DNA from: Acidimicrobiales bacterium
Lineage (GTDB): Bacteria; Actinomycetota; Acidimicrobiia; Acidimicrobiales; JAKAVM01
Assembly: GCA_027452005.1 (NCBI GenBank)
Contig: DAIDHF010000007.1
Span: 15,254-79,253 of the forward strand
DNA length: 64,000 bases
Direction: 5' to 3'
Part shown: piece by piece, positions 77-64,000 of the stretch
Layout: the number at the start of each line of letters is the position of its first letter
How positions within the stretch are numbered: position 1 is the stretch's first letter
Made by a program: the position numbers and the translations under genes
Notes under the pieces: model-generated
What the model was told of the DNA's origin: nothing
The model's input: only the letters and a program-made list of their open reading frames with translations
Database searches by the model: none

Positions 77-895
77 ATGTTCCAAACTTCGGCTTTATCT
101 GGGCGTAATATCTCCAAATCATTTGGTGGGATAAAGGCTCTTGACAACGTATCTTTTTCAGCATATCCAGGCCAAGTACTTGGGATTATTGGGTCAAACG
201 GATCAGGAAAGACGACTCTTTTGGACATCTGCTCGGGTATTTCTCTCCCAGCAACTGGACAGATAAGAATGCTCGACCATCAAGTCACTTTTATGCCTAC
301 CCACCAAAGAGCCACAATGGGAATGGCAAGGTCTTTTCAGAATTCTGATCTATTCCCCAATCTAACCCCTTTTGAAGTTCTCGCTGCCGCCATAGAGACT
401 CCAAATACCCTCGTCGATCCATTGGCCTACGCGATTAGAATCAAGCAAGCTCGGCACCATGAAAAGGCAGTCAAACATCGCACGTTTGAAGTCCTTGAAG
501 AATTTGGAATTGAAGATATTGGGTTTGAAACTATTTCCTCACTTAGCAACCTTCACCGACGTCTCTTAGAACTTGCCTGTGTTCTTGCAAGCAAGCCTCG
601 GATAGTACTGCTCGACGAACCGACGGTAGGAGTCTCCCAGCGCCAACGGGGAGCTCTTGGCGATCTCTTGCAGGTAATAAAGCGCACAACTCGAACGACG
701 ATTGTAATGGTTGAGCATGATATTCCCTTGATCAGCCAGTTAGCTGATTCTCTAGTATGCCTACACCTCGGCAAGGTAATAAGTTCTGGAACTCCGAGTA
801 CGGTGCTAAGGGATAAGGTGGTTCTCGACTCCTATTTAGGTGTTTTGGCAAGGTCGCCAGTAGGCAATTCTCAGCACCAACCATCCAAGTCATGA
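77..895 (+). CDS. ABC transporter ATP-binding protein (LivG/LivF-like)
   Basis: 272-aa ORF with Walker A GSNGSGKTT, Q-loop RSFQ, Walker B IVLLDEPTVGVS and H-loop VMVEHD. The signature motif is divergent (LSNLHRR). No permease gene lies inside the window. Confidence 0.8.
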   Translation: MFQTSALSGRNISKSFGGIKALDNVSFSAYPGQVLGIIGSNGSGKTTLLDICSGISLPATGQIRMLDHQVTFMPTHQRATMGMARSFQNSDLFPNLTPFEVLAAAIETPNTLVDPLAYAIRIKQARHHEKAVKHRTFEVLEEFGIEDIGFETISSLSNLHRRLLELACVLASKPRIVLLDEPTVGVSQRQRGALGDLLQVIKRTTRTTIVMVEHDIPLISQLADSLVCLHLGKVISSGTPSTVLRDKVVLDSYLGVLARSPVGNSQHQPSKS

Positions 896-12056: not shown

Positions 12057-12830
12057 TCACAGCCTTATTCGCGATCCCAAGTTTGGTGCGTCTCCGAATG
12101 GATAGATTCCACCGGCGCTATCAACCATCCAGTAACCAAGTCCGTCCGGAGTCATTGCAAGTCCGACTATGGGCTTTGAAATCTGCTTGTTCCCTAGTGA
12201 CCCATAAAACTGTGCATCTCCAAATGCAAATATGCCGCCATCTGAGGCAACGAACCAGTATCCTTTGCCATCAGATGTTGCCGTCATACCAACGATCGGC
12301 TTGTTTAGGTTCAGAGATCCGGTTGACCCATAAAACTGTGCATCTCCAAATGCAAATATGCCGCCATCTGAGGCAACAAGCCAGTATCCTTTGCCATCAG
12401 ATGTTGCCGTCATCCCAACGACTGGCTTATTGAGTGGCTTACCCCCCATTGATCCATAGAACTTGGCCGAACCAAATGCAAATATTCCTCCATCGGACGC
12501 GACTAACCAGTATCCAAAATTATTAGCCGCTTCCCCCGCCCCAACTATTGGTTTAGTCAATATGGTTGAATTTGACCCTCCGGCAGGTAAACCAGGATTA
12601 ATCTGGCCAGACGAACCGAAATAAGAAGCGCTACCATAGGTAAAGATAGACCCATCAGCACCTACAAGCACGTATCCAGTGCTACTAGAGTCAACTGCAA
12701 ACGCTGAAATCGGCGCGGATAGTGTCAAATTGCTTGCGGAGCCGTATAAAGTTGCGTCCCCGAATGGGTATACATTTCCTGCGCTATCAACCTCCCAATA
12801 ACCTTTTCCATCTGAGGTTGGGGCCATTGC
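12057..12830 (-). repeat. Coding tandem repeat with a 126-nt (42-aa) period, six units; two adjacent units share a near-identical 102-nt block
   Basis: By my alignment, 12199-12300 and 12325-12426 are identical at 97 of 102 nt. The plus-strand shadow ORF 12083-12433 shows the duplication as a repeated LTHKTVHLQMQICRHLRQ. Confidence 0.85.
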
Positions 12831-14348
12831 AACCACCGCCGGTACTGTCGGGGCTAGCCCAGAAAGCTGTGGATCATGGTGAAACATGGGCCATGCACCC
12901 ACCTCGTTCACCGATGCCCCATTCGAAGAGGGAAGCTCAAAGTGATAGATAACACCTTGATTGGAAGAGTTATAACCTGCCACGGTAATTCCAATAGAAC
13001 CATTGGGATCGTCCGTAATCAATGGGGAGTTCTGAAAGCCAATAAAACTGGTAGCACCTATTACCCCTAAGTCTGAGCCAGTCTTGCCGTCAAAAATATC
13101 TATACCAAGCGTAGTTGGAACTAATAGGTCTTGATACCCCGATCCAGAAAGATCCGCTGTGACTGCCGATCCAATAACTGCGCCAGTCGTTGGGGCCTGC
13201 CAAATGGTACTCCCGTTGTCACCGTCCAGTACCCAGATAGACCCAGAACCTGACCCAATATTTGTCCCTTCGATAACTTGAAGTTGACCGTTACCGAGAA
13301 CATCTGCCAAAGCTGGGCTCGAATTGGTTGCTCCATCAAGTTGTACGCTCCAATCTAGTGAACAGTTACTGGCATTTACAGATATGAGCCTATTTGTATC
13401 ACTCACCCCCTGATAGTACATTCCTGTTCCAGCAATAATTGAATAAGTATTTTGGCTACCCACTATTCCAACGGCTGGCGAGGATTGAACGACCTGATTA
13501 GTGTTGTACTGACAGATTAATCCACCGTTGGGTGTTGGTTGATTTAGGTTGCCGGTTGGTGCCAGGACTCTTATGTGACCACCATTTTGATAAGTTGTGT
13601 TATAAGAAAGTCCTGCAGTGGAGTCTCCCCCTTCAATTATTTGATTCTGCCCATTTCCTAGGACATCTCCAATTGCAGGTGTAGTAAAATTAGAATCAGC
13701 CTCATACCAAGGAAATCCAGGAAGAATCGATCCGCTCTGCGCATTCATTGCAAATTCATTTTCACCCATGGATCCACTGATAACATCGGTCGAGCCCTGG
13801 AGATTGCCGACGGTCATTGAGGACTGGACCCCATTTTGCGTCGTTGGATCAGTGGATGGATTGTATTGAGGGACATACCATTGGCTAGACCCTGTCGGGG
13901 TGATTGCCTGATAACCTCCTACAGTCGGGTTAGCAGAATTGCCTACGCCAACGAATACACTGTCCAAGTTGCCTGGATTAATAGGAGCAACCGATGGAGT
14001 AGCATCAATAGCACCACCTGCGTGAAATGGCCAACCTGACACCGCGGATCCATCTGAAAGATGAAAAGCATACACATTCCCCGCCCTGTCGCCAATGACT
14101 ACAGACGGCTTCCCGTCCAAGTTGGCAACATTGGGCGATGAAAGAGCAACTGGGTAACCAGAGTCATCTAACGTTTGCGACCAGATGGTTTGAATTTGGC
14201 TCACTGCAAATACGTGTGGTCGGACAAACAGCTTCTGATAAATACTAGGCCCGGCAAAAGCATTCGCGAACGATACGTCCTGAATAACAGTCACAATGCA
14301 GGCAAAACTAGCTAGAATAACTCCCAACCTTCGAGTAGTGTGCTTCAT
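12057..14348 (-). CDS. Secreted beta-propeller protein (FG-GAP/PQQ-like repeats) with the same C-terminal six-unit 42-aa repeat module
   Basis: Signal-peptide-like N-terminus ([25 protein letters not shown]). Repeated [28 protein letters not shown] and [14 protein letters not shown] motifs. The C-terminus has 6 repeats of the [22 protein letters not shown] type. Confidence 0.7.
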   Translation of the reverse strand: [763 protein letters not shown]

Positions 14349-22932: not shown

Positions 22933-24846
22933 GTGCAAGACAAGGCCGTTGAAAGAGACGAGGATAGCGTCAGCCAAAATGCCCCCGTAACAACTGTCGC
23001 GCTCGACAAGGCAACTGGGATAAAATGGCGACCTGCTGTGCGTAGCGTACTGGCCCTCGTTGCGCTGCTTCCCCTGCTAGGTATCGCTGTTTTGACCGGG
23101 ATTAGCGCCTCTAATAGCTGGTCCAACCGTCAGTTTGCACAAAAGGCAGCTAAGGACGTTGCTCTTCTAAAGGAGATCGCCCAAGCCAGGCTACAGATGA
23201 ACAACGCCGCTGTTCCAATGATTCTAGTTGCATCTGCTAACACTATTGGCATAACCGAGCAGATCGTTAGTCTCCTAGTGGGAATAAACCTTATGAGGGG
23301 GTCGATTTCACTACCCGAGGCCCAGCACCTACTCAGTTCAAGTCAGGTATTCGTGTCCACGCCTACCTTGAAGGCTGATGACCTGGCGACTCTAAAGCTT
23401 AACGCACAGATAGAGGCCGGCCACGGGGATTATGCCACAGCAACGGCAACCCTAGATAAATTTGCGAATGCCCTGGACAGCTACTGGATATCAAAGTATC
23501 AGAAGTTGGAGTCTGACGTTTCAGCGTGGAATCCTCCCGGGACATTTGAAACTCACTTGAGCGCTCTCCGACAAACTTACGCTACCTTTGACGCTGGTAT
23601 CTATAGTGACCGCGATGCAATCGATGTTCTTGAGGGTATTGGAGGAGCCGCTCCGAAGCTACAGCTAACCCAGGAGAGCTACGAATTTCAACAGGCCTCC
23701 CAGCAGTTTCTACCCAACATAGGCGCCAGTGGCCTAGCTGCTTGGAACAAGCTGAATCGTGATCCACATGTTCAGGTGTTCAATCAAGTCATCCAAAACG
23801 CTTTGAAATTGGTTCAAAATGGTGGGCCTGCCCCATTTTTGACCAATGAAAAGGCGGCTGGGGTTGCTGTCAGGGGGGCAATTTACGACGTTGCTGATCT
23901 AAGCAATCTGGTTCAGTCGGCCGCTAACGACCTGGTCAATCAGGCTAACCACGAGGCCAGCGTTGCCAAAGAGGACTTTATCTTGGAGATAGTGTTCCTG
24001 CTAGCGCTCCTGGCATTTAGTATAGGAGGGGTCCTCATTGTTGGACGGAGCCTAACCAAGCCTCTTCAAGCACTTTCTGGGGCCGCCTTGAAGATTCACA
24101 GTGGAGATTTTGATCTTGAAGAACTAGACGATGCTGGCCCCAAGGAGGTTGCAACAACCACCGAGGCATTCAACGTCATGTCAACCACCCTCAAGGCCGT
24201 CGAGCGAAAGACCGTGGCCCTAGCCGAAGAAGATTTGGAGCACGCCGACCTATCCCACCCGCTCCCTGGAAAGACTGGGGCAGCTCTTCAGGCCGCCGTT
24301 GACCAACTGGCCAAGCGTATCAAAGAAAGAGAGGAACAGCGTCAACAACTTTACGAGGCGGCGACCCACGACAGACTGACTAGCTTACTAAACCGAGCCG
24401 CGGTGTTTGACTATTTGACCACAAACGTCACAGAAAGACGAAAGTCAGGTGAGAGTGTTGCGGTTCTCTTCGTCGACATCGACGGGCTCAAACCACTCAA
24501 CGACGAATACGGGCACGAGGCCGGCGATGCCGCCATAAAGGCCACGGGTGAAGCCCTGGTGGAAGCCACCGACTCCTGCGACGTGGTCGGGCGCCTGGGA
24601 GGTGACGAGTTCCTTTCCGTGTTATGTCCTGAACATTCTAAATCTGGAGCAGAAGTTTCCGAGAGAATGCGAGCTCAGGTTGCAAGAAAAACTATTACTG
24701 CAAATGGGAAGTCGGTATCATTGCAAGCTTCCGTTGGGATTGCCCTGGCAGAGTGCGACGCAAGTACCGATCCTATGGAGTTGGTTAAGCTAGCCGACCA
24801 AAGAATGTACGAGGCCAAACGGGCTGCCAGGGTTGCCAGGTCCTAA
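22933..24846 (+). CDS. Membrane diguanylate cyclase: ~285-aa extracytoplasmic sensor between two TM helices + HAMP + GGDEF
   Basis: GTG start 4-6 nt after AGGAGGAG. TM helices at VLALVALLPLLGIAVLTGISA and ILEIVFLLALLAFSIGGVLIVG. HAMP-like segment RSLTKPLQALSGAAL. Intact catalytic motifs DIDGLKPLNDEYGHEAGDAAI and GRLGGDEFLSVL. Confidence 0.85.
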   Translation: MQDKAVERDEDSVSQNAPVTTVALDKATGIKWRPAVRSVLALVALLPLLGIAVLTGISASNSWSNRQFAQKAAKDVALLKEIAQARLQMNNAAVPMILVASANTIGITEQIVSLLVGINLMRGSISLPEAQHLLSSSQVFVSTPTLKADDLATLKLNAQIEAGHGDYATATATLDKFANALDSYWISKYQKLESDVSAWNPPGTFETHLSALRQTYATFDAGIYSDRDAIDVLEGIGGAAPKLQLTQESYEFQQASQQFLPNIGASGLAAWNKLNRDPHVQVFNQVIQNALKLVQNGGPAPFLTNEKAAGVAVRGAIYDVADLSNLVQSAANDLVNQANHEASVAKEDFILEIVFLLALLAFSIGGVLIVGRSLTKPLQALSGAALKIHSGDFDLEELDDAGPKEVATTTEAFNVMSTTLKAVERKTVALAEEDLEHADLSHPLPGKTGAALQAAVDQLAKRIKEREEQRQQLYEAATHDRLTSLLNRAAVFDYLTTNVTERRKSGESVAVLFVDIDGLKPLNDEYGHEAGDAAIKATGEALVEATDSCDVVGRLGGDEFLSVLCPEHSKSGAEVSERMRAQVARKTITANGKSVSLQASVGIALAECDASTDPMELVKLADQRMYEAKRAARVARS

Positions 24847-56339: not shown

Positions 56340-59300
56340 TTAGAACTTTATTGCACCCACAATCAACAGGGCGGCAACACACACGGCCACCGCACCAGAA
56401 ATACGGTATGTCCAGGTTACCTTCCACTTATGACGCTTATGGGCCAAAAGGGTGGCGAAATCAACCAAATAACTTGGTAACGAAAGTACAACAAAGCCGA
56501 CTGCCATAATCTCAAATCCCCCGTGGATCGAGTACTTCAAGACAGCCCCGAGAGCAGTACCCACCGCTAACAGAACGAGAGTCTTTACAATTCCCTTTGG
56601 AATATAGCGAGACAGGGGCTTTACTTTAGGCAGCTTACTGGAGTAAATAGACATGACCCCCACGGCAAGTCCGATTGCAGTTCCAAGATAAAGCTCCCAC
56701 ACATTGCCCAAGTAGGCGTACGCCACAAACCCAATCAACCCTCCCCTGATCAAGTTTGAGATATGTTGTTGGCGTACACTCGGCTTTGGAAGCTCTCTTG
56801 GCATTACCGATTTAATTCTCAGGGGATAGTGGTGAACCGCCACGGTCTCCAATAACATTCTGGCTATCACGGCAAGCAAGACCGCGAGCGCGACAGTCGA
56901 CTCCTTCGAAGTGATCCCAAAAGATACTCCGGCGAGTGACGGAAGGGTTCCGATCATCTTTTCAATACCCCATGCGGCTACGAGTCCACCGATTATTAGA
57001 TCGCCAAACCTGTCAGTCCACTCACCTACATCTTTGGCCGGGAGCCTTCGCGCTGGCCTGGCTTGAGACATCACTACTGGGGCAGCAAAGAAAATTATGC
57101 ATAGACCAAGCAAGGTCCTCAAGGCGCTTGCTGAATCGATTCCCCCAGAACACAACACGCCAAGCCCGAAGACCAAACCTCCTAGAAGCCCCGATAAACC
57201 ATCAAATGCCGAAAGTACGACCAAGGCAGTAAAGATGCCAAATGAAGGTGGCACTGGCTGGCCCGAGGTCGATACCAGGGCTAGAGCTCCTAGTGCTACC
57301 CCGAAAAGTGGAAGCAAGAGTGAACCAGGCCCGGCCATTGCACGGGCATATACCCCATCATTTGATAACTTTCCAATCATTGGAGACCAAGGATTTAGCT
57401 TCTCGGGAATCTTCTTGCTCCACTCATCAAAGATGGCAATCCCCATCCAACTCCAGAACCGAGAGTGATCACCCCTTCCCTTTGATTCGTGGGTCACATT
57501 TGAATGTTCAATCTCAAATGACGCAAGTGAGGCCCCGGCATGACTGGATTCGCTTGTGTTGCCATGACCAATCTGGCCATGATGTCCACTTTGGGAGACC
57601 CCGGCCGTTACTAATTTCCCTCGGTAACCTTCAGCCCCACCTTGCCCCCCTGGTTCTCTTGTTCGCCCGGAACCTTGACCTTCCGAACTGCCATCACTAC
57701 CCGACGAAGATCCTCCACTACCGTCTTGTTCTTCGCCGTCATCGCCTCCACTCGATCCACCAGAACCAGCACCAATGCCGCCGGCACCCATAAGTCCCAT
57801 GATCGCAAAAGCCCCAACCAACGAGGAAACTACAGTTGAGGTATGCGAAGCCGGAATGTAAGTGGAATAGACCTGACCCCCTATTACCTTGGTTCCCGAT
57901 AAGGGTTGACTTACCTGGGGCTGCGGTGGGAAGAGGACGGTTGGGGAAGCTACCATTTTTGCCACAGATCCATCAGGGCTTACAGTGAGAGGCCACTGAT
58001 CAGATACCGAGGTTCCAGTCGGGCCTTGCCCGTCTACCAAGATGTGATGGGATCCATCCACCACGCCTCCTGGCACCGAGACTGATTGTGCAAAGCCTCC
58101 ACTCGAATCTACTGGAATTTCTGCCATAACAGTTGGGTTCGAGTGCAAGACGACCTTGGCCATAGAACCTGGCTTGAGTCCATTGCCCGATACGGCAAAA
58201 TGACTCCCACTAAAAACGCTCCCTATGGAAAAATTAAACTGGAGAGCAATCGAGGCTGATTTCTCCCCGGGAATCCTAACTATCTTAGAAGATGAACTTC
58301 CCGTACCAGAAGCCAAAGCATTCATCGTTACTTTGAGCCCTTGAGTTGCTAAGGTTTGAGCCTTGGAAAGCGTAGGCTGTGCGCTTGACTTTGAAGAGCT
58401 TTTTGTCTTGACGGTAACGGACTTGGACTGGACTCTAGACTTCGAGTTAGGTGAAGACTTCCCAGGTGACACCTTAGAGTTCTTCGTCAATGATAGATAT
58501 TTGGATGCCTGATGATTTGCGTTCGCAAGGCTAGAACCAGAAGCCTTGCTAACCGAAACCCGTTGGTTGGCACTCTGGGCAAGTAGAGTATCTTTAGCCG
58601 CCAGAGCCTCATATTGGCTTGCTGCCGCAGCTGAATTGTTGGCTGCTAGCTTTGTCTTCGAGATTAACACCTGAGCATTTTTCTCGCGCAAGGCCACTGC
58701 TAGTTTTGCCTTGTTGGTGGCAGACTGTGCCTTCTTGACTAATGTGCCAGCAACGCTCTTAGCACGGTTTGCACTGGAGATCGCCTTCTTCTCAGATTGC
58801 TCGACCTGTGTGAGTTTACTTTCATAAAATGCATACTTCTTGGAATTTGGAATGAGAGTTTGGAGAGCCTGCTTTAGCTTGTCCACTGTTAGTGCGTCTG
58901 CTCTAGCTACCTTGTCAAGATGTGTGGCATCCGTGAGCAATTTGCTTGCAGCAATCTGGGCCTTTTTCTGGGCTACTTGCGCATTGTGCAAGGAGTTTTT
59001 AGCCTGAGAGACTAGAAGGTTTACTTTTAGCGTTATTTCATTTAGTGCCTTTTGAGTACTGTATGATTTTTCACTGGCTTTCAAAGCACTTAACTGGGTC
59101 GAAGTTGCGCTCGATTGACTGTTCAAAATATTTAATACTCTTTTTGAACTGGTCGCCTGTAGGCGCAATTTGATCGCCGAACGAACATCCGGTGGCGATT
59201 TGGCAAGCTTAGATTTCGCTAAAGCCATATCCGCAGCCCTTTGCTCTTTAACTGCGACTATTTCTTCTTTTGCTGCAGCTTTTACATATTTTGTGGCAGA

Positions 59301-62300
59301 GATTGCCGACTTCACCGATTTAATCTGTTGTGCTAATGAACGATCTACTGTTTTGAGGACCGTTGCTCTAGCTTTTTCGTATTGAACCCGGTAAGTGACT
59401 ATCTTTTTATTCAAGGCCTTCTCGGCGTTGAGGACACGCCCTAGTTCCTTTTCAAGTTTCACAGGAATACGCTTGCTACGTGGAGTGAGTCGGTGAACCT
59501 TCAAATAGGCCTCAAGCTTTACGTTGAGTCTAGCAACTTGCCTAGACATTCTGGCCTTTTGAGTACCGTCTTTGGCAATCTTACCGGCAACTTTCATCAC
59601 GCTAGACTCGTGTGACTGAGCTGACTTCATAGCATTCCTGGCGAGCTTACGTTCTGAAGAAGCTTTGGTTGCAGCGCTCTTTGCGGACTGGTTGAGCGAT
59701 TTTGCAGATCCCAATGCTCTTTTAGCCAAAGCCTCATCACGAACTGCAAGCTGTGCTTGACGCTCAGAAGCCTTTGTAGGACGGAAAGTAGGCGCCTTGA
59801 TAGTGCGTATATTTCCTGACCGGGGATGTCTTACTGGTATATGGCTTCCAGAGACGTTTGAACCACTTCCTAGTCTTGTCGACGAACTAGCACCTGGCGT
59901 TTTTGTTGAACTTCCACCTTTGACCGCCGTACTCGATTGGCTTGGCCCATTTGCCGTACTTCCCCCAGCACTAGATTGCCCTGAATTTGGGGCCCCACTT
60001 CCTTGGGTCGATCCACCAGTAGGACCACCGGGGCTGATTCCTGTCCCCCCAGGGTTACCTCCACCTAATGGTGGGCCATTTACGGGCGGGTTAGTTGTAG
60101 ACGTAACCGGTGGCAAGGTTGTTGTGGTTGAGTTCGGGGGTAGCGTTGTAGATGTAGTAGTAGTCGGGGGTAGCGTTGTAGATGTAGTAGTAGTCGGGGG
60201 TAGCGTTGTAGATGTAGTGGTCGACGGTAGAGTTGTCGAGGTCGTTGTAGTCGTCGGCGGTAGAGTTGTGGAGGTAGTAGTAGTAGTTGGAGTACCGGTT
60301 GGAGACGACACTGTTACGTCGACAGAAGAACTCGACGATGCCGTAAACAACCCGGTTCCGTTATAGGTCGCAGTAATTGAATAAGTTCCACTTCCCGAAA
60401 AACTGGTGGTACAACTCACCAAACCGGAAGATCCTAATGGATCGCTTATACAACCGGAAATGGGTGATCCATTTGAATAGAAATTTACAGTTCCCGATGG
60501 TGTACCCGATCCTGACGATACGGTTGCCTCAAAGATTACTGATTGACCAGTGTCAAGTGTTGAAGCCGAGGTAGTTAGAGAAGTCGACGTCGGCTGAGGC
60601 GGAGGCGGTGGCGAAATCGCCGTAGCGGATGCCTCATTTGAATATCCTGAAGTACCCGATGGATCCACCGCTTTTACTTTAAAATACGTCGGTGATGAAT
60701 AGTTCGAGACGAAAGCCACATAGCTCGTCCCGGTAACCGGCGAAGCATTTATTGGTGTTGAAGACTCGCCTCCCGATGACGGACCCATATAGATGTTGTA
60801 GCCAGTTACAGTTGACGCCCCATTGGTCGACGGAGGAGACCAGGACAACGAAACACTCCCAACGCTACCTGATGCACTAAGGGAGCTAGGGGGAGCCGTT
60901 GTCGACGCAACAAACAGAGAACCTATCGTGCAGTTCTCATCATTGGACTTCGCTCCAGTTTGGTCGATTTCCGGACACAGACCAGAGGTCGCATTTGCTA
61001 TAGCACCAATTTCAGGAGCACCCGTATTGGGCTTGACACTTAGAGTAGGTCCCCCATTATTGGCAAGTGAACCAAGATCACCGGGCAATCCGGTATCTGT
61101 TATGTCACCAGTGGCGCCATTGACGCAAGCCGACCCGGACCTTGCAGCGTTGTAGCCGTAGTCGTGAAGGGTGCCATAAACCTTGCAAGCACCAGCATCG
61201 GCAAAAATCGTTGCCGATGGGGCGAGTGTCATTCCAGGATATGTATTGACGTCGTATCCACCGGCAAGGCTGGCGCTTGAGTTGCCGACAAAAGTATCGC
61301 CGATAAGAGTCAGAGTTCCGCTGGTACCCCCGTCGACAATCGCACCTCCATTGCCACCGGTTGTCTGGTTCGAGTAAAATGTGGAATAGGTAATTGATGC
61401 TGATCCTGCGATTGATAATGCGCCACCGGCTCCGCAGTTACAGCCGCCATTATCGAGATTGGATGAGAAGGTCGAACCGCTTATGGAGATAGTTGCTCCA
61501 GTAGAACTGTCAATTGCACTTCCCCATTGAGAGTTGTTGTCGTTATTGCTAGAAAATGTAGAGTTTGTCACCGTAGCAGTTCCCGTATTGTAAAGCCCAG
61601 CACTTGCCGATGAGACGCCATCGACGTCCTTGTTGTTTGTAACGGTGGAGTTCTCAATTTTCAATGTTCCGGCATTACCAATTCCTGCAGCCGGACCGCT
61701 CGAATATCCGTTCTCGATCGTCAGGCCATTTATGGTCACATTAGACCCTGAAGCTATGCTGATTACCTGGACTAGATTGCCCCCACTAATAACGGGAGTT
61801 GCTCCAGATTCGCCTTGAAGTGTCAGTGAACCTGCCAGGGAAACTGCAAGGGTTGCCGTTAGACTATAGGTACCGGTTGCGAAATTTACAGTGTCGCCCG
61901 TAGCTTTAGCAACTGCAATTGCATTCTGAACGGTGCATGGATCACTAGTGTCGCCACAGGTGTCGGTTCCGCCCGAGGTAGGCGCGACATAGTAGGTTGA
62001 AATTGGAACAACAAATACTGCACCCATAGAGCACGGCGAAGTACCCGATGAAGTCCCGGTTTGATCAGTAGAAGGGCACAGGGCATTGGGAAATCCACTT
62101 GGTGCAGACGTAGAATCGGGAATCGCCCCAACCCCAGCACTGGAGGTCAGTGGCTTAATCGTTTGTGTTGGTCCACCGTTGCTAGCCAGAGTTCCAAGGT
62201 TGACAAACGGGGAATTGCTTATGCTACCTGTAGCTGAAAGTCCGCAGGTTGAGTCATTTGCAATGTTATAGCCCTTGTCAGAGATCGTACCACCATTGCT

Positions 62301-63203
62301 CGCACAATCACTAGAGCCAGAACCAGTAATGATTGATCCGGCAATATATACAGTCCCAGATGCCTGCGCAAAGATGGCGTTTCCGCCATTGGTTGATGCG
62401 CCGGTCGTATTGTTAGCTAGGGTTGAAGACTCAATATATACAGTACCTTGGTAGTTATTGATTCCAGCGCCAAAGTGACCGGTTGCATTTGTTGTAATAG
62501 CGTTTGCCGTAATTGTCGAGTTTTCAATTTTCATGTTGCCATAAAAATTCTGGAACCCGCCTCCGACCCAAACGGCATTATTATTTTCAATCGTAGAATC
62601 TTCAACGGTCATAGAAGAAGCACTGCCGTTATTGAATAGGGCACCACCCGAGTTAGTAACAGAGTTGCCCGTAAAGGTTGAGTTCATTACGGTTAGATGA
62701 CCCGAATTACTAATTCCTCCACCGTTTATTGCGACGCCGTTCTCTATCGTAACCCCTTCTACGGTGGCAGTCGTCGTCGAGGCGATGGTCATGACTTGCA
62801 CGGTGCTATTTCCGTTCAATACTGGCGATGCACCCGTGTCAGCTTGAATGGTGATACTGCCCGTCGGTGACACGGCAAGGGTTGACCCTAAGGAGTAAGT
62901 ACCGGACTCCAAGATGACCGTGCCTCCACCTGCAGTATTTGCATCCGAGATAGCCGTTGAGATTGAGCAGGTGTCGGTGCTCGAAGTACATCCTCCACTT
63001 CCAGTAGGTGATGCATACCAAGGTCCAGTTGCCGAGGCTAAACCAATAGTGACAGCAAGGGTGATTGTAGAAGTTAGAGAGACCGCCAGGAGGACCGCCC
63101 ATATAGACCTCCACCTAAATGTCGCCCTAGCTTGAAGATCACGCTGTTGGGCTACTTTGCGCCAAAAAGAAGAAAGAAGCCTGACCGATACAGTCTTACC
63201 CAA
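56340..63203 (-). CDS. Giant (2287-aa) multidomain surface/membrane protein of unknown function
   Basis: TTG start 8 nt after GGAGGA, with a signal-like N-terminus ending in LASA. Two right-handed beta-helix modules each end in an LG(T/S)LA(S/N)NGGPT motif. These are followed by FN3-like and Ig-like domains, a TTTTSTTLPP tandem repeat, a Gly/Pro/Ser linker and a ~460-aa K/A/S-rich helical region. After that come an Ig-like domain, a TM helix, an acidic Gly/Ser and His-rich linker, and ~10-11 predicted TM helices. Confidence 0.8.
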   Translation of the reverse strand: MGKTVSVRLLSSFWRKVAQQRDLQARATFRWRSIWAVLLAVSLTSTITLAVTIGLASATGPWYASPTGSGGCTSSTDTCSISTAISDANTAGGGTVILESGTYSLGSTLAVSPTGSITIQADTGASPVLNGNSTVQVMTIASTTTATVEGVTIENGVAINGGGISNSGHLTVMNSTFTGNSVTNSGGALFNNGSASSMTVEDSTIENNNAVWVGGGFQNFYGNMKIENSTITANAITTNATGHFGAGINNYQGTVYIESSTLANNTTGASTNGGNAIFAQASGTVYIAGSIITGSGSSDCASNGGTISDKGYNIANDSTCGLSATGSISNSPFVNLGTLASNGGPTQTIKPLTSSAGVGAIPDSTSAPSGFPNALCPSTDQTGTSSGTSPCSMGAVFVVPISTYYVAPTSGGTDTCGDTSDPCTVQNAIAVAKATGDTVNFATGTYSLTATLAVSLAGSLTLQGESGATPVISGGNLVQVISIASGSNVTINGLTIENGYSSGPAAGIGNAGTLKIENSTVTNNKDVDGVSSASAGLYNTGTATVTNSTFSSNNDNNSQWGSAIDSSTGATISISGSTFSSNLDNGGCNCGAGGALSIAGSASITYSTFYSNQTTGGNGGAIVDGGTSGTLTLIGDTFVGNSSASLAGGYDVNTYPGMTLAPSATIFADAGACKVYGTLHDYGYNAARSGSACVNGATGDITDTGLPGDLGSLANNGGPTLSVKPNTGAPEIGAIANATSGLCPEIDQTGAKSNDENCTIGSLFVASTTAPPSSLSASGSVGSVSLSWSPPSTNGASTVTGYNIYMGPSSGGESSTPINASPVTGTSYVAFVSNYSSPTYFKVKAVDPSGTSGYSNEASATAISPPPPPQPTSTSLTTSASTLDTGQSVIFEATVSSGSGTPSGTVNFYSNGSPISGCISDPLGSSGLVSCTTSFSGSGTYSITATYNGTGLFTASSSSSVDVTVSSPTGTPTTTTTSTTLPPTTTTTSTTLPSTTTSTTLPPTTTTSTTLPPTTTTSTTLPPNSTTTTLPPVTSTTNPPVNGPPLGGGNPGGTGISPGGPTGGSTQGSGAPNSGQSSAGGSTANGPSQSSTAVKGGSSTKTPGASSSTRLGSGSNVSGSHIPVRHPRSGNIRTIKAPTFRPTKASERQAQLAVRDEALAKRALGSAKSLNQSAKSAATKASSERKLARNAMKSAQSHESSVMKVAGKIAKDGTQKARMSRQVARLNVKLEAYLKVHRLTPRSKRIPVKLEKELGRVLNAEKALNKKIVTYRVQYEKARATVLKTVDRSLAQQIKSVKSAISATKYVKAAAKEEIVAVKEQRAADMALAKSKLAKSPPDVRSAIKLRLQATSSKRVLNILNSQSSATSTQLSALKASEKSYSTQKALNEITLKVNLLVSQAKNSLHNAQVAQKKAQIAASKLLTDATHLDKVARADALTVDKLKQALQTLIPNSKKYAFYESKLTQVEQSEKKAISSANRAKSVAGTLVKKAQSATNKAKLAVALREKNAQVLISKTKLAANNSAAAASQYEALAAKDTLLAQSANQRVSVSKASGSSLANANHQASKYLSLTKNSKVSPGKSSPNSKSRVQSKSVTVKTKSSSKSSAQPTLSKAQTLATQGLKVTMNALASGTGSSSSKIVRIPGEKSASIALQFNFSIGSVFSGSHFAVSGNGLKPGSMAKVVLHSNPTVMAEIPVDSSGGFAQSVSVPGGVVDGSHHILVDGQGPTGTSVSDQWPLTVSPDGSVAKMVASPTVLFPPQPQVSQPLSGTKVIGGQVYSTYIPASHTSTVVSSLVGAFAIMGLMGAGGIGAGSGGSSGGDDGEEQDGSGGSSSGSDGSSEGQGSGRTREPGGQGGAEGYRGKLVTAGVSQSGHHGQIGHGNTSESSHAGASLASFEIEHSNVTHESKGRGDHSRFWSWMGIAIFDEWSKKIPEKLNPWSPMIGKLSNDGVYARAMAGPGSLLLPLFGVALGALALVSTSGQPVPPSFGIFTALVVLSAFDGLSGLLGGLVFGLGVLCSGGIDSASALRTLLGLCIIFFAAPVVMSQARPARRLPAKDVGEWTDRFGDLIIGGLVAAWGIEKMIGTLPSLAGVSFGITSKESTVALAVLLAVIARMLLETVAVHHYPLRIKSVMPRELPKPSVRQQHISNLIRGGLIGFVAYAYLGNVWELYLGTAIGLAVGVMSIYSSKLPKVKPLSRYIPKGIVKTLVLLAVGTALGAVLKYSIHGGFEIMAVGFVVLSLPSYLVDFATLLAHKRHKWKVTWTYRISGAVAVCVAALLIVGAIKF
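60103..60300 (-). repeat. 30-nt coding tandem repeat (6-7 units) encoding TTTTSTTLPP
   Basis: Units 60136-60165 and 60166-60195 are identical. Flanking units are progressively degenerate, with some of 27 nt. Confidence 0.85.
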
Positions 63204-63343
63204 AATTCATATCCTCCACACCGAATATTCCAAGAGGACAATACCACATAGGGTGCTCAGGTCATAAGAACTACGGTGAGATTAATTCCGCTCCCCCAAT
63301 TCCAGTTGGATCGGGCAGGTCTATGAGGTCAATCCCTGGCGAA

Positions 63344-64000
63344 CTAACAGGTACTTGATAGCTGGTAGGTTGTAGTTGGACTCTGAAGTTGAGCCGCCTG
63401 ACAGGTGGGCTCGGGTTGGCTTAGGGGAAGTAGCTCGACCCAGGTTTTTCCAGGCTCGAGGGCGATCTGATGGCCCTTTGAGTCGATAAATTTAGTGACA
63501 GAAAATTCGCTGGGCTTAGACCAGGTAGCCTTGACTATCTCTCCCCCACTTAATACGTAGGCCTGACCGTTCCCGACCGTGTTGGCATCCGGAACGGGAT
63601 TTCCAGCTGGATCAATATAACCAGTATTAGAGTACGGGACGATCTCAACTATTACGTTCGTTGCTGTTATTGGAACTCCCGCTGCGTCGACTGATGGGGT
63701 CCCCTGCGTACGGTCCCACACCTTAGCAATAGGGTCCCATGCCCATTCAACTGTTGTTACCCCGCTCAAATCTAGGTTGATCTTTGCAATTCCAAGTTCA
63801 CCTGGGGCACTAAAGGGCGACCCGGAAGTAAGGAACTTGAAAAGTTGTGGCGGGGCCTTGGCTGGCGCAGTGTTGTTCTTCCTAAGAGTAATGGTTGACG
63901 TGTACAGATTGTCGGGGATTAGCCTGGAGTTATCCCGGTAGTATGCACCAGGTTCACCCGTTGAGGCCCCCACATCGACAACCCCGGTTTTCATGACGTC
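63344..64000 (-). CDS. Secreted protein, C-terminal part only (DUF3048-like); the 5' end lies beyond the window
   Basis: The frame is open to the window edge. The pattern YYRDNSRLIPDNLYTS ... VEWAWD ... NVIVEIVPY ... GNGQAYVLSGGEIVKATWSK ... LEPGKTWVELLP matches my memory of the C-terminal half of the YerB/DUF3048 family. Confidence 0.55.
   Translation of the reverse strand, partial: DVMKTGVVDVGASTGEPGAYYRDNSRLIPDNLYTSTITLRKNNTAPAKAPPQLFKFLTSGSPFSAPGELGIAKINLDLSGVTTVEWAWDPIAKVWDRTQGTPSVDAAGVPITATNVIVEIVPYSNTGYIDPAGNPVPDANTVGNGQAYVLSGGEIVKATWSKPSEFSVTKFIDSKGHQIALEPGKTWVELLPLSQPEPTCQAAQLQSPTTTYQLSSTC

What the first reader, a model, noticed from the sequence alone, without database searches (positions are those of the whole stretch)
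56340..63203. 2287-aa protein joining an adhesin-like ectodomain, a long helical stalk and a polytopic membrane domain in one chain
Seen: a single uninterrupted ORF with a good RBS. From N to C it has a signal-like segment and two tandem beta-helix modules. Each module opens with a Cys-containing cap (DTCSISTAISDANTAGGGTVILESGTYSL / DPCTVQNAIAVAKATGDTVNFATGTYSL) and closes with LGTLASNGGPTQTIKP / LGSLANNGGPTLSVKP. Next come an FN3-like domain, PPPPPQP, an Ig-like domain, TTTTSTTLPP repeats and a G/P/S linker. These are followed by ~460 aa of K/A/S-rich helix, another Ig-like domain and one TM helix (57781-57840). After that come an acidic Gly/Ser stretch, a His-rich stretch and ~10-11 hydrophobic helices to the C-terminus. 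Known: beta-helix modules ending in an NGGPT motif are, from memory, the choice-of-anchor Q type, normally found on secreted or wall-anchored proteins. Inferred: the roughly 1750 residues between the signal segment and the first TM helix would be extracytoplasmic, so the enzyme- or adhesin-like heads would be held on a stalk by the protein's own integral membrane domain. I know of no described family with this whole architecture. It could be a self-anchored surface fibril or an ectodomain coupled to a transporter- or sensor-like membrane module.
Basis: partly seen in the sequence, partly recalled or inferred. Interest (0 to 1): 0.75.

Follow-up and report, generated by a model that had tools for sequence, protein, structure and literature searches.

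The report
Surface fibril with its own membrane base
This real 2287-residue actinobacterial gene encodes a long cell-surface fibril rooted in the cell membrane by its own conserved ten-helix domain, and it belongs to a large, so far unnamed protein family whose membrane domain matches nothing in the libraries searched.

Summary
ORF 56340-63203(-) is intact, has a GGAGGA ribosome-binding site, and is also intact in an independent assembly (99.6% nucleotide identity, one repeat unit fewer).

From N to C the protein has:
- a Sec-type signal peptide;
- two paralogous PMP / choice-of-anchor-Q beta-helix heads;
- a weak FN3 match and a clear Big_3_5 domain;
- a T/P-rich repeat;
- a ~415-residue basic coiled-coil stalk;
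- an Ig-like domain, one TM helix and a disordered linker;
- a ten-helix membrane domain.

The last ~650 residues are a module shared by a whole family. The membrane domain alone has 642 clusters (50% identity), almost always at the C-terminus of 0.4-6 kb proteins. The Ig-like/TM part was found in 73 of 99 representatives long enough to hold it. Ectodomains vary freely. Every locus recovered carries an Actinomycetota label except one, and many come from freshwater metagenomes. Members are named "hypothetical protein" or nothing.

The membrane domain has no convincing Pfam, NCBIfam or PDB match, by sequence or Foldseek. It evolves more slowly than the ectodomain and keeps invariant Asp/Arg/Glu residues.

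Most likely this is a self-anchored, sortase-independent surface fibril, probably an adhesin. Whether the base only anchors or also transduces or transports is open. I rate it a new variant of a known kind, interest about 0.65.

The parts
63212..63217 (-). Ribosome-binding site GGAGGA, 8 nt upstream of the TTG start
   Evidence: Read directly from the sequence
56340..63203 (-). Whole ORF, 2287 aa plus stop codon
   Evidence: Intact in independent assembly L001
63030..63203 (-). Signal peptide, residues 1-58: long basic n-region, h-region 37-55, ASA|TG cleavage site by the -3/-1 rule
   Evidence: Kyte-Doolittle peak 2.07. The cleavage site is inferred by rule; no predictor was run
62004..63029 (-). 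Beta-helix head module 1 (residues 59-400): Cys cap DTCSISTAISDAN, GGA[ILV]/FxxN motifs, closing choice-of-anchor-Q motif LGTLASNGGPTQTIKP
   Evidence: NCBIfam NF041518 stretch at 335-396. Homologues are named choice-of-anchor Q, CSLREA or PMP-repeat / Beta_helix proteins. Motif counts
60909..62003 (-). Beta-helix head module 2 (residues 401-765), a paralogue of module 1
   Evidence: 35% identity to module 1, E=3e-43. NF041518 26.3 bits
60636..60893 (-). FN3-like domain (residues ~771-856), weak match
   Evidence: Pfam fn3 E=2.9e-4, 21.4 bits, below the gathering score of 25
60306..60578 (-). Bacterial Ig-like domain Big_3_5 (residues 876-966), preceded by PPPPPQP
   Evidence: Pfam PF16640 E=7.9e-17, 62 bits
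60134..60284 (-). TTTTSTTLPP mucin-like repeat: 30-bp unit x 5, copy number varies between assemblies
   Evidence: Tandem Repeats Finder. L001 lacks one unit
59772..60098 (-). Gly/Pro/Ser-rich low-complexity linker (residues ~1036-1144)
   Evidence: Read from the translation
58524..59771 (-). Basic helical stalk (residues 1145-1560), heptad-type periodicity; about 60 nm if fully extended as a helix
   Evidence: 3.5-residue hydrophobic period, power 3.57 against a shuffle 99th percentile of 1.40. K+R 93 against D+E 29 and few Pro/Gly over 1140-1620
57954..58253 (-). Family-conserved membrane-proximal Ig-like domain (residues ~1651-1750), with invariant HSxP, G-x-F, LP and G-x-H
   Evidence: AF2 beta-sandwich, block-mean pLDDT 72-89. 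Invariant columns in A4. Weak NCBIfam GxPGS_dom hit, E=9.7e-5. Only generic Ig-like Foldseek hits
57855..57893 (-). Juxtamembrane beta-hairpin (residues 1771-1783, VIGGQVYSTYIPA) carrying the family motif Y-x-P
   Evidence: AF2 strands E135-138 and E141-145. Conservation
57774..57854 (-). Single TM helix 'TM0' (residues 1784-1810), rich in Gly/Ala, running outside to inside
   Evidence: Kyte-Doolittle peak 1.76 at 1792-1810. AF2 helix at 1784-1807, pLDDT ~80. Conserved across the family
57474..57773 (-). Disordered linker (residues 1811-1910), inferred cytoplasmic: acidic Gly/Ser stretch, His-rich stretch, then the family motif SLASxxxxH
   Evidence: pLDDT ~30. Length varies across the family; homologues are K/R-rich here
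56343..57473 (-). Conserved membrane domain (residues 1911-2287): GDxSxxW motif, amphipathic lead-in and ten long helices. At least 90% conserved: D1912 D1926 D1949 R1954 D2001 R2049 R2052 R2053 R2065 D2068 R2115 E2119 R2129
   Evidence: 642 clusters at E<=1e-3, 310 at <=1e-30. Conservation. AF2 pLDDT 84.7, pTM 0.80. No convincing Pfam, NCBIfam or PDB match
57150..57242 (-). Helix-kink-helix 1988-2000 / D2001 / 2002-2018, with near-invariant Asp (98%) and Gly2005; proposed re-entrant hairpin entering from the outer face
   Evidence: AF2 shows a single-residue helix break. K/R parity argument. Covariation fits the re-entrant model better. This is inference, not shown

Best explanation
**What it is.** The gene encodes a Sec-exported cell-surface fibril of an actinobacterium, held in the cytoplasmic membrane by its own polytopic C-terminal domain. 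It is one member of a large, unannotated family found almost only in Actinomycetota. In this family a conserved C-terminal module is joined to freely exchangeable, adhesin-type ectodomains. The module runs: Ig-like domain, beta-hairpin, one TM helix, disordered linker, ten-helix membrane domain.

**Proposed working (each step is inferred unless marked shown).**
1. The N-terminal signal peptide sends the chain through Sec.
2. About 1750 residues fold outside the cell. These are two PMP/choice-of-anchor-Q beta-helix heads, FN3/Big_3_5 spacers and a probably glycosylated T/P-rich hinge. A ~415-residue basic coiled-coil stalk then spans the wall zone. The domain identities are shown; the location outside is inferred.
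3. TM0 stops transfer, and the linker and the basic lead-in stay in the cytoplasm.
4. The ten-helix domain inserts with its K/R-rich loops inside, probably with a re-entrant hairpin that carries the near-invariant Asp2001.
5. The result is a sortase-independent, non-covalent membrane root for a long fibril whose tips bind ligands such as polysaccharides, particles or other cells.

**The base is probably more than a passive anchor.** It is the slowest-evolving part of the protein and keeps a set of invariant charged residues. Most of these lie on the face that charge bias assigns to the cytoplasm, and one lies within a hydrophobic helix. I take it to be a structured base for anchoring and probably for oligomerising the coiled-coil stalk, possibly with a ligand- or ion-binding site.
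For: **The gene is real.** The ORF is intact with a ribosome-binding site, and an independent assembly carries the same intact ORF.

**The ectodomain looks extracellular.**
- There is a signal-like N-terminus.
- All 16 Cys in the ectodomain lie in close pairs.
- The heads match choice-of-anchor-Q, and their homologues are named choice-of-anchor Q, CSLREA or PMP-repeat proteins.
- Big_3_5 is a clear match.
- The stalk shows heptad periodicity.

**It belongs to a family.**
- The membrane domain has 642 clusters, and in 115 of the 150 best hits it ends within 30 residues of the C-terminus.
- In every complete locus it ends a single long ORF of 845 to more than 3700 aa that starts with a signal-like segment.
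- Forty-one members carry fn3, Big_3_5, FG-GAP, MBG, BNR, RCC1, TSP3 or lectin domains, and none has a Pfam hit on the C-domain.
- The Ig-like/TM0 region was found in 73 of 99 representatives long enough to contain it.
- Forty of 41 genome loci carry an Actinomycetota label.
- Four MAGs each gave two loci, at least some with different ectodomains.
- No partner gene was shared in the flanks of the four loci scanned.

**The base is under constraint.**
- In seven of eight orthologue pairs the C-domain is more conserved than the ectodomain, for example 0.89 against 0.58 and 0.53 against 0.28.
- There are 14 invariant columns among sequences only 29-42% identical to the query.

**Structure and topology.** The C-domain is confidently predicted as helical. 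K/R bias places four loops and the pre-TM1 region on one side.
Against: - Nothing has been tested experimentally, and export, surface display and binding are all inferred.
- A single TM helix would be enough for anchoring, so "anchor" does not explain ten more helices or the invariant Asp/Arg/Glu set.
- No oligomer prediction was run, so the oligomerisation role is speculation.
- The topology is unresolved. With ten full crossings, the charge bias conflicts with the orientation that TM0 imposes. The proposed re-entrant hairpin is shown by AlphaFold2 as a helix with only a one-residue break.
- The heads could be enzymes such as polysaccharide lyases or hydrolases rather than adhesins. There is a weak N-terminal hit to a rhamnogalacturonidase model (E about 2e-4).
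Confidence: 0.6

Rival explanations
1. **Adhesion-coupled transducer, channel or transporter.** The ten-helix domain is the functional core, and the ectodomain is its sensor or tether. Binding or mechanical pull on the fibril moves TM0 against the bundle. This gates an ion or solute path, or changes a cytoplasmic binding surface formed by the conserved Asp/Arg/Glu cluster. In plan it would be a bacterial counterpart of adhesion receptors such as adhesion GPCRs or polycystin-1.
For: - The membrane domain is the most constrained part of the protein.
- Charged residues conserved at 90% or more include an Asp at a helix break within a hydrophobic helix (D2001, with G2005) and an R-x-x-x-E pair in TM5.
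- Covariation puts residue 1999 next to TM5 residue 2108, close to R2115/E2119.
- A re-entrant hairpin with a conserved polar tip is typical of channels and transporters (my own knowledge). It is the better fit to charge bias and covariation here.
- The conserved surface lies on the side assigned to the cytoplasm, while the loops assigned to the outside are only 3-10 residues long.
- Thirteen of 100 members add an eleventh TM helix plus a long charged tail.
Against: - There is no similarity to any transporter, channel or receptor family: no convincing Pfam or NCBIfam match, and Foldseek against PDB gives TM-scores of 0.22 or less.
- No internal repeat was detected of the kind many secondary transporters have.
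- No signalling domain is fused, and no partner gene was shared in the flanks of the four loci scanned.
- The linker between TM0 and the bundle is disordered and varies in length, which fits poorly with tight mechanical coupling through the chain.
Confidence: 0.25
2. **Processing or modifying machine acting in cis.** The membrane domain would be an enzyme or carrier that acts on its own ectodomain. Examples are a sorting enzyme that cleaves at the conserved juxtamembrane Y-x-P motif and hands the fibril to the wall, or a lipid-linked sugar carrier that feeds O-glycosylation of the T/P-rich hinge.
For: - The arrangement of conserved motif, TM helix and basic flank just upstream resembles a C-terminal sorting signal.
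- Strongly P/T-rich segments lie upstream of the module in 22 of 70 members, usually within ~230 residues of it.
- Clusters of conserved Arg could bind phosphate head groups. That reading is my inference.
Against: - No His, Cys or Ser is invariant, so the catalytic sets of exosortase/archaeosortase (Cys/Arg/His), rhomboid (Ser/His) and CPBP proteases (Glu/His) are absent.
- The loops assigned to the outside are tiny, unlike GT-C glycosyltransferases or O-antigen ligases.
- There is no Pfam hit to any such family.
- P/T linkers are not universal in the family.
- A one-enzyme-per-substrate fusion would be unusual.
Confidence: 0.1
3. **Artefact.** The ORF would be an assembly chimera, or a fusion created by a frameshift, of a secreted protein gene and a separate membrane protein gene.
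For: None found. Several short "membrane-domain-only" database entries exist.
Against: - An independent assembly has the same uninterrupted ORF in the same gene neighbourhood.
- More than 20 loci from other genomes carry the same fusion as one ORF.
- The one short entry that could be checked (P0124, 579 aa) is a mis-called start inside an 1100-aa ORF that has a signal peptide. Several others visibly begin within or just after TM0.
Confidence: 0.02

Closest known systems
Sortase-anchored LPXTG surface proteins of Gram-positive bacteria (MSCRAMM-type adhesins)
   Same: Both have a signal peptide, modular adhesin-type ectodomains (Ig-like, FN3, beta-helix), a Pro/Thr-rich wall-spanning region, and a conserved motif followed by a hydrophobic helix near the C-terminal end of the ectodomain.
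   Different: There is no LPXTG motif. The helix is followed by ~480 more residues, including a conserved ten-helix domain, not by a short basic tail. Retention would therefore be non-covalent in the membrane rather than covalent on peptidoglycan.
EsaA / YueB / PIP (YhgE-Pip family) of Bacillota
   Same: [quoted passage not shown] They are the nearest described case of a fibre on its own polytopic base.
   Different: In EsaA the extracellular region lies between N- and C-terminal TM segments and folds back on itself. Here a signal peptide (cleavage inferred) precedes a linear ectodomain, and all the membrane helices are C-terminal. No Pfam or NCBIfam model of that family matches. EsaA is part of the T7SSb locus, whereas no partner gene was seen next to this gene or in the four other loci scanned.
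Choice-of-anchor domain proteins (NCBIfam NF041518, choice-of-anchor Q) and PMP-repeat / CSLREA beta-helix proteins
   Same: Both head modules match NF041518 and have the GGA[ILV]/FxxN motifs. Their homologues carry these names.
   Different: From my own knowledge, such heads are usually followed by short sorting signals (PEP-CTERM, LPXTG, T9SS C-terminal domain) or by an autotransporter barrel. Here the "anchor of choice" is a ~650-residue helical membrane module not listed among those anchors.
Autotransporters (type V secretion; chlamydial Pmp proteins)
   Same: Both put a beta-helix passenger and the protein's own membrane domain in one chain.
   Different: The autotransporter membrane domain is a C-terminal beta-barrel in an outer membrane. 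Here it is an alpha-helical bundle in the cytoplasmic membrane of what is presumably a monoderm.
Eukaryotic adhesion GPCRs and polycystin-1 (analogy only)
   Same: Both combine a large, variable adhesive ectodomain, a conserved juxtamembrane domain and a polytopic helical domain. In polycystin-1, as here, the first TM helix is separated from the remaining helices by a cytoplasmic segment (my own knowledge).
   Different: There is no sequence or fold similarity: GPCR hits in Foldseek have TM-scores of 0.19 or less with E above 0.7. No GAIN/GPS domain is present, and no signalling partner is known.

Membership tests
Choice-of-anchor Q domain proteins (NCBIfam NF041518) | A match to the 58-position domain model above its curated cutoff of 25 bits | tested here: met
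   Whole protein scores 44.5 bits in two stretches. Module 2 alone scores 26.3 bits and module 1 alone 24.0 bits.
Chlamydia PMP repeat (Pfam PF02415) / Beta_helix (PF13229) | A Pfam match above the gathering score; GGA[ILV] and FxxN motifs | tested here: inconclusive
   PF02415 gives E=0.07, 13.9 bits, below the gathering score of 20.6. Motifs are present: four GG[AG][ILV] and six FxxN in the heads. Many homologues carry PF02415 or PF13229.
Bacterial Ig-like domain group 3 (Pfam Big_3_5) | A Pfam match above the gathering score of 35.5 | tested here: met
   62.1 bits, E=7.9e-17, residues 876-966.
Fibronectin type III (Pfam fn3) | A Pfam match above the gathering score of 25 | tested here: inconclusive
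   21.4 bits, E=2.9e-4.
LPXTG / sortase substrates | LPXTG-type motif, then a hydrophobic helix, then a short basic tail at the extreme C-terminus | tested here: not met
   No LP.T[GASN], L[AP].TG or NP[QK]T[GN] motif anywhere. The helix is followed by ~480 residues.
YhgE/Pip / EsaA / ABC-2-type membrane domains | A match to the family's Pfam or NCBIfam models; an N-terminal TM helix plus C-terminal TM helices flanking the ectodomain | tested here: not met
   No such hit for the whole protein, for its pieces, or for 21 C-domain homologues.
Autotransporter (type V) | A C-terminal beta-barrel translocator domain | tested here: not met
   The C-terminal 388 residues are predicted all-helical with pLDDT 84.7. 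No autotransporter Pfam hit.
Known transporter/channel superfamilies (MFS, RND, CPA, others) | Sequence-profile or fold similarity; for many of them an internal structural repeat | tested here: not met
Intramembrane sorting enzymes and proteases (exosortase/archaeosortase, rhombosortase, CPBP) | Conserved catalytic Cys/Arg/His, Ser/His or Glu/His residues in the membrane domain | tested here: not met
   No His, Cys or Ser is among the invariant columns. The only Ser conserved at 90% or more are in the polar lead-in before the first membrane helix. The conserved charged residues are Asp, Arg and Glu.
The unnamed actinobacterial family defined here (variable ectodomain plus Ig-like/TM0/ten-helix C-terminal module) | A full-length match to the ~390-residue C-domain at the C-terminus, preceded by TM0 and the Ig-like domain, with an N-terminal signal peptide | tested here: met
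   The window protein is the query. It aligns end to end with homologues at up to 6e-90, scores 6.5e-145 against the family HMM, and carries 33 of the 34 columns conserved at 90% or more, with K1945 in place of the usual Arg.

The most novel reading that the evidence does not exclude
The conserved ten-helix domain is a new kind of membrane transducer or channel, with a re-entrant hairpin carrying a near-invariant Asp and a charged face assigned to the cytoplasm. It would be gated or loaded by the adhesive fibril it carries. The family would then be a bacterial, Actinomycetota-wide class of adhesion receptors or mechanosensors, analogous in plan to adhesion GPCRs and polycystin-1 but unrelated to them. 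It would let wall-enclosed planktonic cells sense contact with particles, prey, grazers or phages.
Probability: 0.25. Interest if true: 0.85.

Novelty: new variant of a known kind. Interest (0 to 1): 0.65.

Why it matters
Surface proteins of Gram-positive bacteria are normally described as held by sortase/LPXTG, lipid anchors, wall-binding repeats or a single TM helix. This gene adds a further recurrent solution: a conserved ~650-residue module ending in a ten-helix membrane domain. The module carries interchangeable adhesin-type ectodomains of up to about 6000 residues.

The family is large (642 clusters at 50% identity) and occurs in several freshwater bacterioplankton lineages: Luna-type Microbacteriaceae, Nanopelagicales and Acidimicrobiia. 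It is named "hypothetical protein" or nothing, and it matches no Pfam or NCBIfam model and, by sequence or Foldseek, no solved structure.

Naming it would improve annotation of many actinobacterial genomes. It would also mark likely phage-receptor, grazing-defence or attachment proteins in these organisms.

The membrane domain is more constrained than the rest of the protein and keeps charged residues within its membrane helices. It may therefore do more than anchor. At least one cultured strain (Frankineae bacterium MT45) carries a member, so this can be tested.

Tried and rejected
**Searches that were blind or returned little.**
- A Pfam scan of the whole 2287-aa protein returned nothing, although the pieces give clear hits. 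The full-length scan was simply blind, so I scanned segments instead.
- The word-indexed homologue search with the C-domain found nothing. With a 21-sequence profile it found only one protein. The exhaustive HMMER search was needed.
- An exact look-up of the whole protein found no record. I reached the independent contig through the neighbouring YebC gene instead.

**Comparisons that found nothing.**
- Foldseek against PDB with both models gave no significant match to the membrane domain, and only generic Ig-like hits for the Ig-like domain.
- A profile search against PDB sequences gave only chance-level aldolase hits.
- Weak single hits (Frag1, SpoIIM, CrcB, PEP-CTERM) each occurred in one member only, so I rejected them as noise.
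- hhalign found no internal repeat.

**Context checks.**
- The flanks of four other loci hold unrelated genes (aldo-keto reductase, EamA, glutathione peroxidase, SDR, Lsr2, Fic), so no system partner emerged.
- The family was not found in IMG/VR viral contigs.
- Seven literature searches found no description of this family.

**Ideas rejected.**
- A sortase/exosortase/rhomboid-like reading, because no Cys, His or Ser is invariant.
- A GT-C or O-antigen-ligase-like reading, because the loops assigned to the outside are tiny and there is no Pfam hit.
- Stand-alone membrane-domain proteins. The one checkable case is a truncated start call, and several other short entries begin within or just after TM0.

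**Covariation, only partly informative.** I ran my own mean-field covariation analysis on 225 sequences (Neff 171).
- Its top pair reproduces the AF2 loop-loop bridge, and it favours the re-entrant topology. Mean depth mismatch for the top 15 pairs is 5.5 Å against 11.0 Å, and for the top 30 pairs 6.9 Å against 9.7 Å.
- Lower-ranked pairs contradict one another, so this is only a modest indication.


Full report
**1. The observation**

The ORF at 56340..63203 on the minus strand is real and uninterrupted: 2287 codons with a TTG start. GGAGGA lies at 63217-63212, 8 nt upstream. An open frame of this length cannot arise by chance in ~50% GC DNA (composition).

A metagenome contig from a different assembly (ENA ERZ27233573, 17 kb, locus L001) carries the same gene order: DUF3048, giant gene, pdxS, pdxT, yebC, ruvC, ruvA, ruvB. 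It is 99.6% identical in DNA over 12.4 kb. Its copy is intact and differs by one missing TTTTSTTLPP unit and ten substitutions spread along the protein. An assembly chimera or frameshift fusion is therefore excluded for practical purposes.

The flanking genes are ordinary chromosome core genes: pdxST, yebC, ruvCAB, secDF, relA, aspS and alaS. From my own knowledge this gene order is typical of Actinomycetota.

**2. Anatomy, N to C**

- **Signal peptide.** Residues 1-58 have a long basic n-region, a hydrophobic core at 37-55 and ASA|TG. The cleavage site is inferred by rule only.
- **Two beta-helix heads.** Residues 59-400 and 401-765 are paralogous, 35% identical, E=3e-43.
  - Each opens with a Cys-containing cap and closes with the choice-of-anchor-Q motif. 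NCBIfam NF041518 scores 44.5 bits for the whole protein in two stretches.
  - The heads carry GGA[ILV] and FxxN motifs.
  - Their database relatives are named choice-of-anchor Q, CSLREA domain, "predicted outer membrane repeat protein" or right-handed beta-helix proteins, and many carry Pfam PMP-repeat or Beta_helix domains.
- **Spacers and hinge.**
  - There is a weak FN3 match below Pfam's threshold, then PPPPPQP, then a clear Big_3_5 Ig-like domain.
  - Next comes a T/P-rich repeat encoded by a 30-bp x 5 tandem array, followed by a Gly/Pro/Ser linker.
- **Stalk.**
  - Residues ~1145-1560 show a hydrophobic period of 3.5 residues that stays coherent over ~415 residues: power 3.57 against a 99th-percentile shuffle of 1.40.
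  - Over 1140-1620 there are few Pro/Gly and a strong net positive charge, K+R 93 against D+E 29.
  - This is what a coiled-coil stalk looks like.
- **Cysteines.** All 16 Cys of the ectodomain sit in close pairs. This fits an oxidising, extracytoplasmic location.

**3. The C-terminal module**

AlphaFold2 was run on a 15-sequence alignment of residues 1637-2287. It predicts:
- a beta-sandwich at ~1651-1750 (block-mean pLDDT 72-89);
- a short beta-hairpin over VIGGQVYSTYIP;
- a helix at 1784-1807, called TM0 here (pLDDT ~80);
- about 100 disordered residues (pLDDT ~30), which are the acidic Gly/Ser and His-rich stretches;
- the helical membrane domain.

The membrane domain alone (residues 1900-2287, 21-sequence alignment) gives pLDDT 84.7 and pTM 0.80, with ten long helices. 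The only caveat is that the FN3 assignment is weak.

**4. It is a family, not a one-off**

- **Finding the family.**
  - The word-indexed search missed the family.
  - An exhaustive HMMER search with the membrane domain found 642 clusters at 50% identity, 310 of them below 1e-30.
- **Position and length.**
  - In 115 of the 150 best hits the match ends within 30 residues of the C-terminus.
  - These proteins range from 280 to 5995 residues, with a median of about 800.
  - In more than 20 complete genomic loci, one ORF of 845 to more than 3700 residues carries a signal-like N-terminus and ends with this domain.
- **Short entries.**
  - Short "membrane-domain-only" entries look like fragments or mis-called starts.
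  - The one that could be checked, an NCBI protein of 579 aa (P0124), lies inside an 1100-aa ORF with a signal peptide, FN3-like domains and a P/T linker.
- **How far conservation reaches.**
  - Conservation extends upstream of the membrane domain.
  - The Ig-like domain (invariant HSxP, GxF, LP, GxH), the Y-x-P hairpin and TM0 were detected in 73 of 99 representatives long enough to contain them.
  - A basic SLASAKVKHxKF-like stretch and GDRSxTWRWPG are shared by most members aligned.
- **Ectodomains vary freely.**
  - Among 41 members, fn3 occurs in 14 and Big_3_5 in 11. FG-GAP, MBG, Big_13, BNR, RCC1, TSP3, lectin and other domains also occur.
  - No Pfam family ever covers the C-domain.
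- **Names.** Of the 20 representative clusters looked up, 9 carry the name "hypothetical protein" and 11 carry none. One comes from a cultured strain, Frankineae bacterium MT45.
- **Taxonomy and habitat.**
  - Forty of 41 loci from species-representative genomes carry an Actinomycetota label. They include Microbacteriaceae such as Aquiluna, Rhodoluna, Aurantimicrobium and Glaciihabitans, plus Acidimicrobiia.
  - A Nanopelagicales member turned up separately. One "Acidobacteriota" bin is probably mis-binned.
  - Forty-two more loci come from metagenomes, several of them recognisably from lakes. None comes from viral contigs.
- **Copies and neighbours.**
  - Four MAGs each gave two loci.
  - Neighbours in the four other loci scanned are unrelated housekeeping genes, so the gene appears to act alone.

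**5. What the membrane domain is not**

- No significant Pfam or NCBIfam model matches the query or any of 21 homologues. The only hits are isolated and weak, and they differ from member to member.
- A family profile finds nothing among PDB sequences beyond chance-level aldolase hits.
- Foldseek of the confident model against PDB gives a best E of 0.34 and TM-scores of 0.22 or less, which is background for helical bundles.
- No internal repeat is detectable.
- No His or Cys is conserved, and the only conserved Ser lie in the polar lead-in. This argues against exosortase-, rhomboid- or CPBP-type catalysis.
- Thirteen charged positions are conserved at 90% or more: D1912, D1926, D1949, R1954, D2001, R2049, R2052, R2053, R2065, D2068, R2115, E2119 and R2129.

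**6. Constraint and topology**

- **Constraint.** In seven of eight orthologue pairs from Microbacteriaceae, the C-domain is more conserved than the ectodomain, for example 0.89 against 0.58, 0.66 against 0.41 and 0.53 against 0.28.
- **Charge bias.**
  - Across 101 sequences, K/R-rich loops alternate cleanly with uncharged ones. L3-4, L5-6, L7-8 and L9-10 are basic. L1-2, L2-3, L4-5, L6-7 and L8-9 are nearly free of K/R.
  - In 13 members an eleventh helix follows. In most of them a basic residue comes right after it, followed by a long charged tail. This agrees with the basic loops being cytoplasmic and the end of helix 10 being outside.
  - The flank after TM0 and the region before helix 1 are also basic in most homologues, as expected if TM0 runs from outside to inside.
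- **The conflict.**
  - These facts cannot all hold if all ten helices cross the membrane.
  - They fit if the helix-kink-helix 1988-2000 / D2001 / 2002-2018 enters and leaves on the outer side, with the near-invariant Asp at its buried tip.
- **Covariation.**
  - My own covariation analysis (225 sequences, Neff 171) gives some support for that.
  - Its best pair reproduces the AF2 bridge between L7-8 and L9-10. The second pair links the GDxSxxW region to L5-6.
  - The re-entrant model has about half the depth mismatch of the all-crossing model for the top 15 pairs: 5.5 Å against 11.0 Å.
- **Against the re-entrant model.** AF2 shows only a one-residue helix break. Weaker covariation pairs conflict with one another.
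- I report the re-entrant model as the better-fitting inference, not as shown.

**7. How it most likely works**

*Shown:*
- an intact gene;
- domain identities typical of surface proteins, with disulfide-type Cys pairing;
- a periodic basic stalk;
- a conserved C-terminal module ending in a confidently helical, strongly constrained domain;
- wide recurrence of that module under exchangeable ectodomains.

*Inferred:*
- Export is Sec-dependent, and the ectodomain folds outside.
- TM0 acts as a stop-transfer signal.
- The linker and the basic lead-in are cytoplasmic.
- The ten-helix domain forms the root.
- The stalk, about 60 nm if fully extended, carries the two beta-helix heads through and beyond the wall.

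The simplest reading is a sortase-independent, self-anchored fibril or adhesin. The heads could instead be polysaccharide-active enzymes.

The membrane domain is unlikely to be a mere anchor, because one helix would be enough for that. It may be an oligomerising, force-bearing base. Alternatively it may couple events at the fibril to the cytoplasm or to ion or solute movement. I put the fibril-on-a-structural-base reading at about 0.6, a transducer/channel/transporter core at about 0.25, a cis-acting processing or modification role at about 0.1, and an artefact at 0.02 or less.

**8. Comparison with known systems and novelty**

- **By function**, the protein resembles LPXTG adhesins. However, it has no LPXTG motif, and its helix is followed by ~480 residues.
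- **By architecture**, the nearest described case is EsaA/YueB/PIP, whose elongated extracellular region is flanked by TM domains (paper read). Topology, genomic context and sequence family all differ, and no family model matches.
- **The heads** are true choice-of-anchor-Q / PMP-type modules. The "anchor" chosen here is one that is not on the usual list.
- **Autotransporters** share the idea of a beta-helix passenger plus own membrane domain, but use a beta-barrel in an outer membrane.
- **Adhesion GPCRs and polycystin-1** are only an analogy of plan.

I class this as a new variant of a known kind: a surface fibril or adhesin with a previously undescribed, family-defining polytopic membrane module. 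If the module turns out to be a transducer or channel, it would be a new kind of system.

Noticed in passing
window 60134-60284 versus L001: The 30-bp TTTTSTTLPP tandem array differs by exactly one unit between two otherwise 99.6% identical assemblies. This is a copy-number polymorphism in the hinge of the fibril.
   Followed up: yes
L043:6438-9740 (NCBI GCA_053484615.1, Ca. Nanopelagicales MAG): The deposited protein (P0124, 579 aa, "hypothetical protein") starts at an internal Met. The real ORF is 1100 aa, with a signal peptide, FN3-like domains and a long P/T linker. Short membrane-domain-only entries in databases are probably artefacts of this kind.
   Followed up: yes
Family members P0042, P0047, P0049, P0055, P0075, P0078, P0088, P0092, P0098, P0109, P0111 and others: About 13 of 100 members have an eleventh TM helix after the domain, with a conserved W-W pair. 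In most of them a basic residue follows, and then a charged tail of up to ~110 residues. This is a subfamily whose tail is probably cytoplasmic.
   Followed up: partly
window 58344-59786 (residues 1140-1620): The stalk is strongly basic, with a net charge of about +64. A cationic coiled coil threading an anionic wall (teichoic acids or similar polymers) may itself contribute to retention. This was not tested.
   Followed up: no
window 892-3825(+) and 22933-24846(+): The window holds two c-di-GMP turnover genes: a GGDEF-EAL protein (977 aa) and a HAMP-GGDEF protein (637 aa). In other bacteria c-di-GMP often controls adhesin display. No link to the giant gene was examined.
   Followed up: no
window 63344-64000(-), L001:108-1262: A DUF3048 gene of unknown function lies directly upstream on the same strand in both assemblies. 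I did not check whether it is a regular neighbour elsewhere. It was not among the flanking genes scanned in four other loci.
   Followed up: partly
L005 (JAGWSF010000081.1): This contig is labelled as an Acidobacteriota MAG but carries a family member 40% identical to the query, while every other genome hit is labelled Actinomycetota. It is probably a mis-binned contig.
   Followed up: no
L026:12893-20779(+): A second giant ORF (2629 aa) lies just downstream of a family member in a Microbacteriaceae MAG. It lacks the membrane domain according to the family HMM.
   Followed up: partly
window 56343-63203, whole-protein Pfam scan: Scanning the full 2287-aa protein against Pfam returned no families, although the Big_3_5 domain scores 62 bits when scanned as a fragment. 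Long low-complexity-rich proteins can be silently missed by whole-protein scans.
   Followed up: yes
window 12057-14348(-): A 763-aa ORF has only a weak partial beta-propeller hit and is otherwise unannotated.
   Followed up: no
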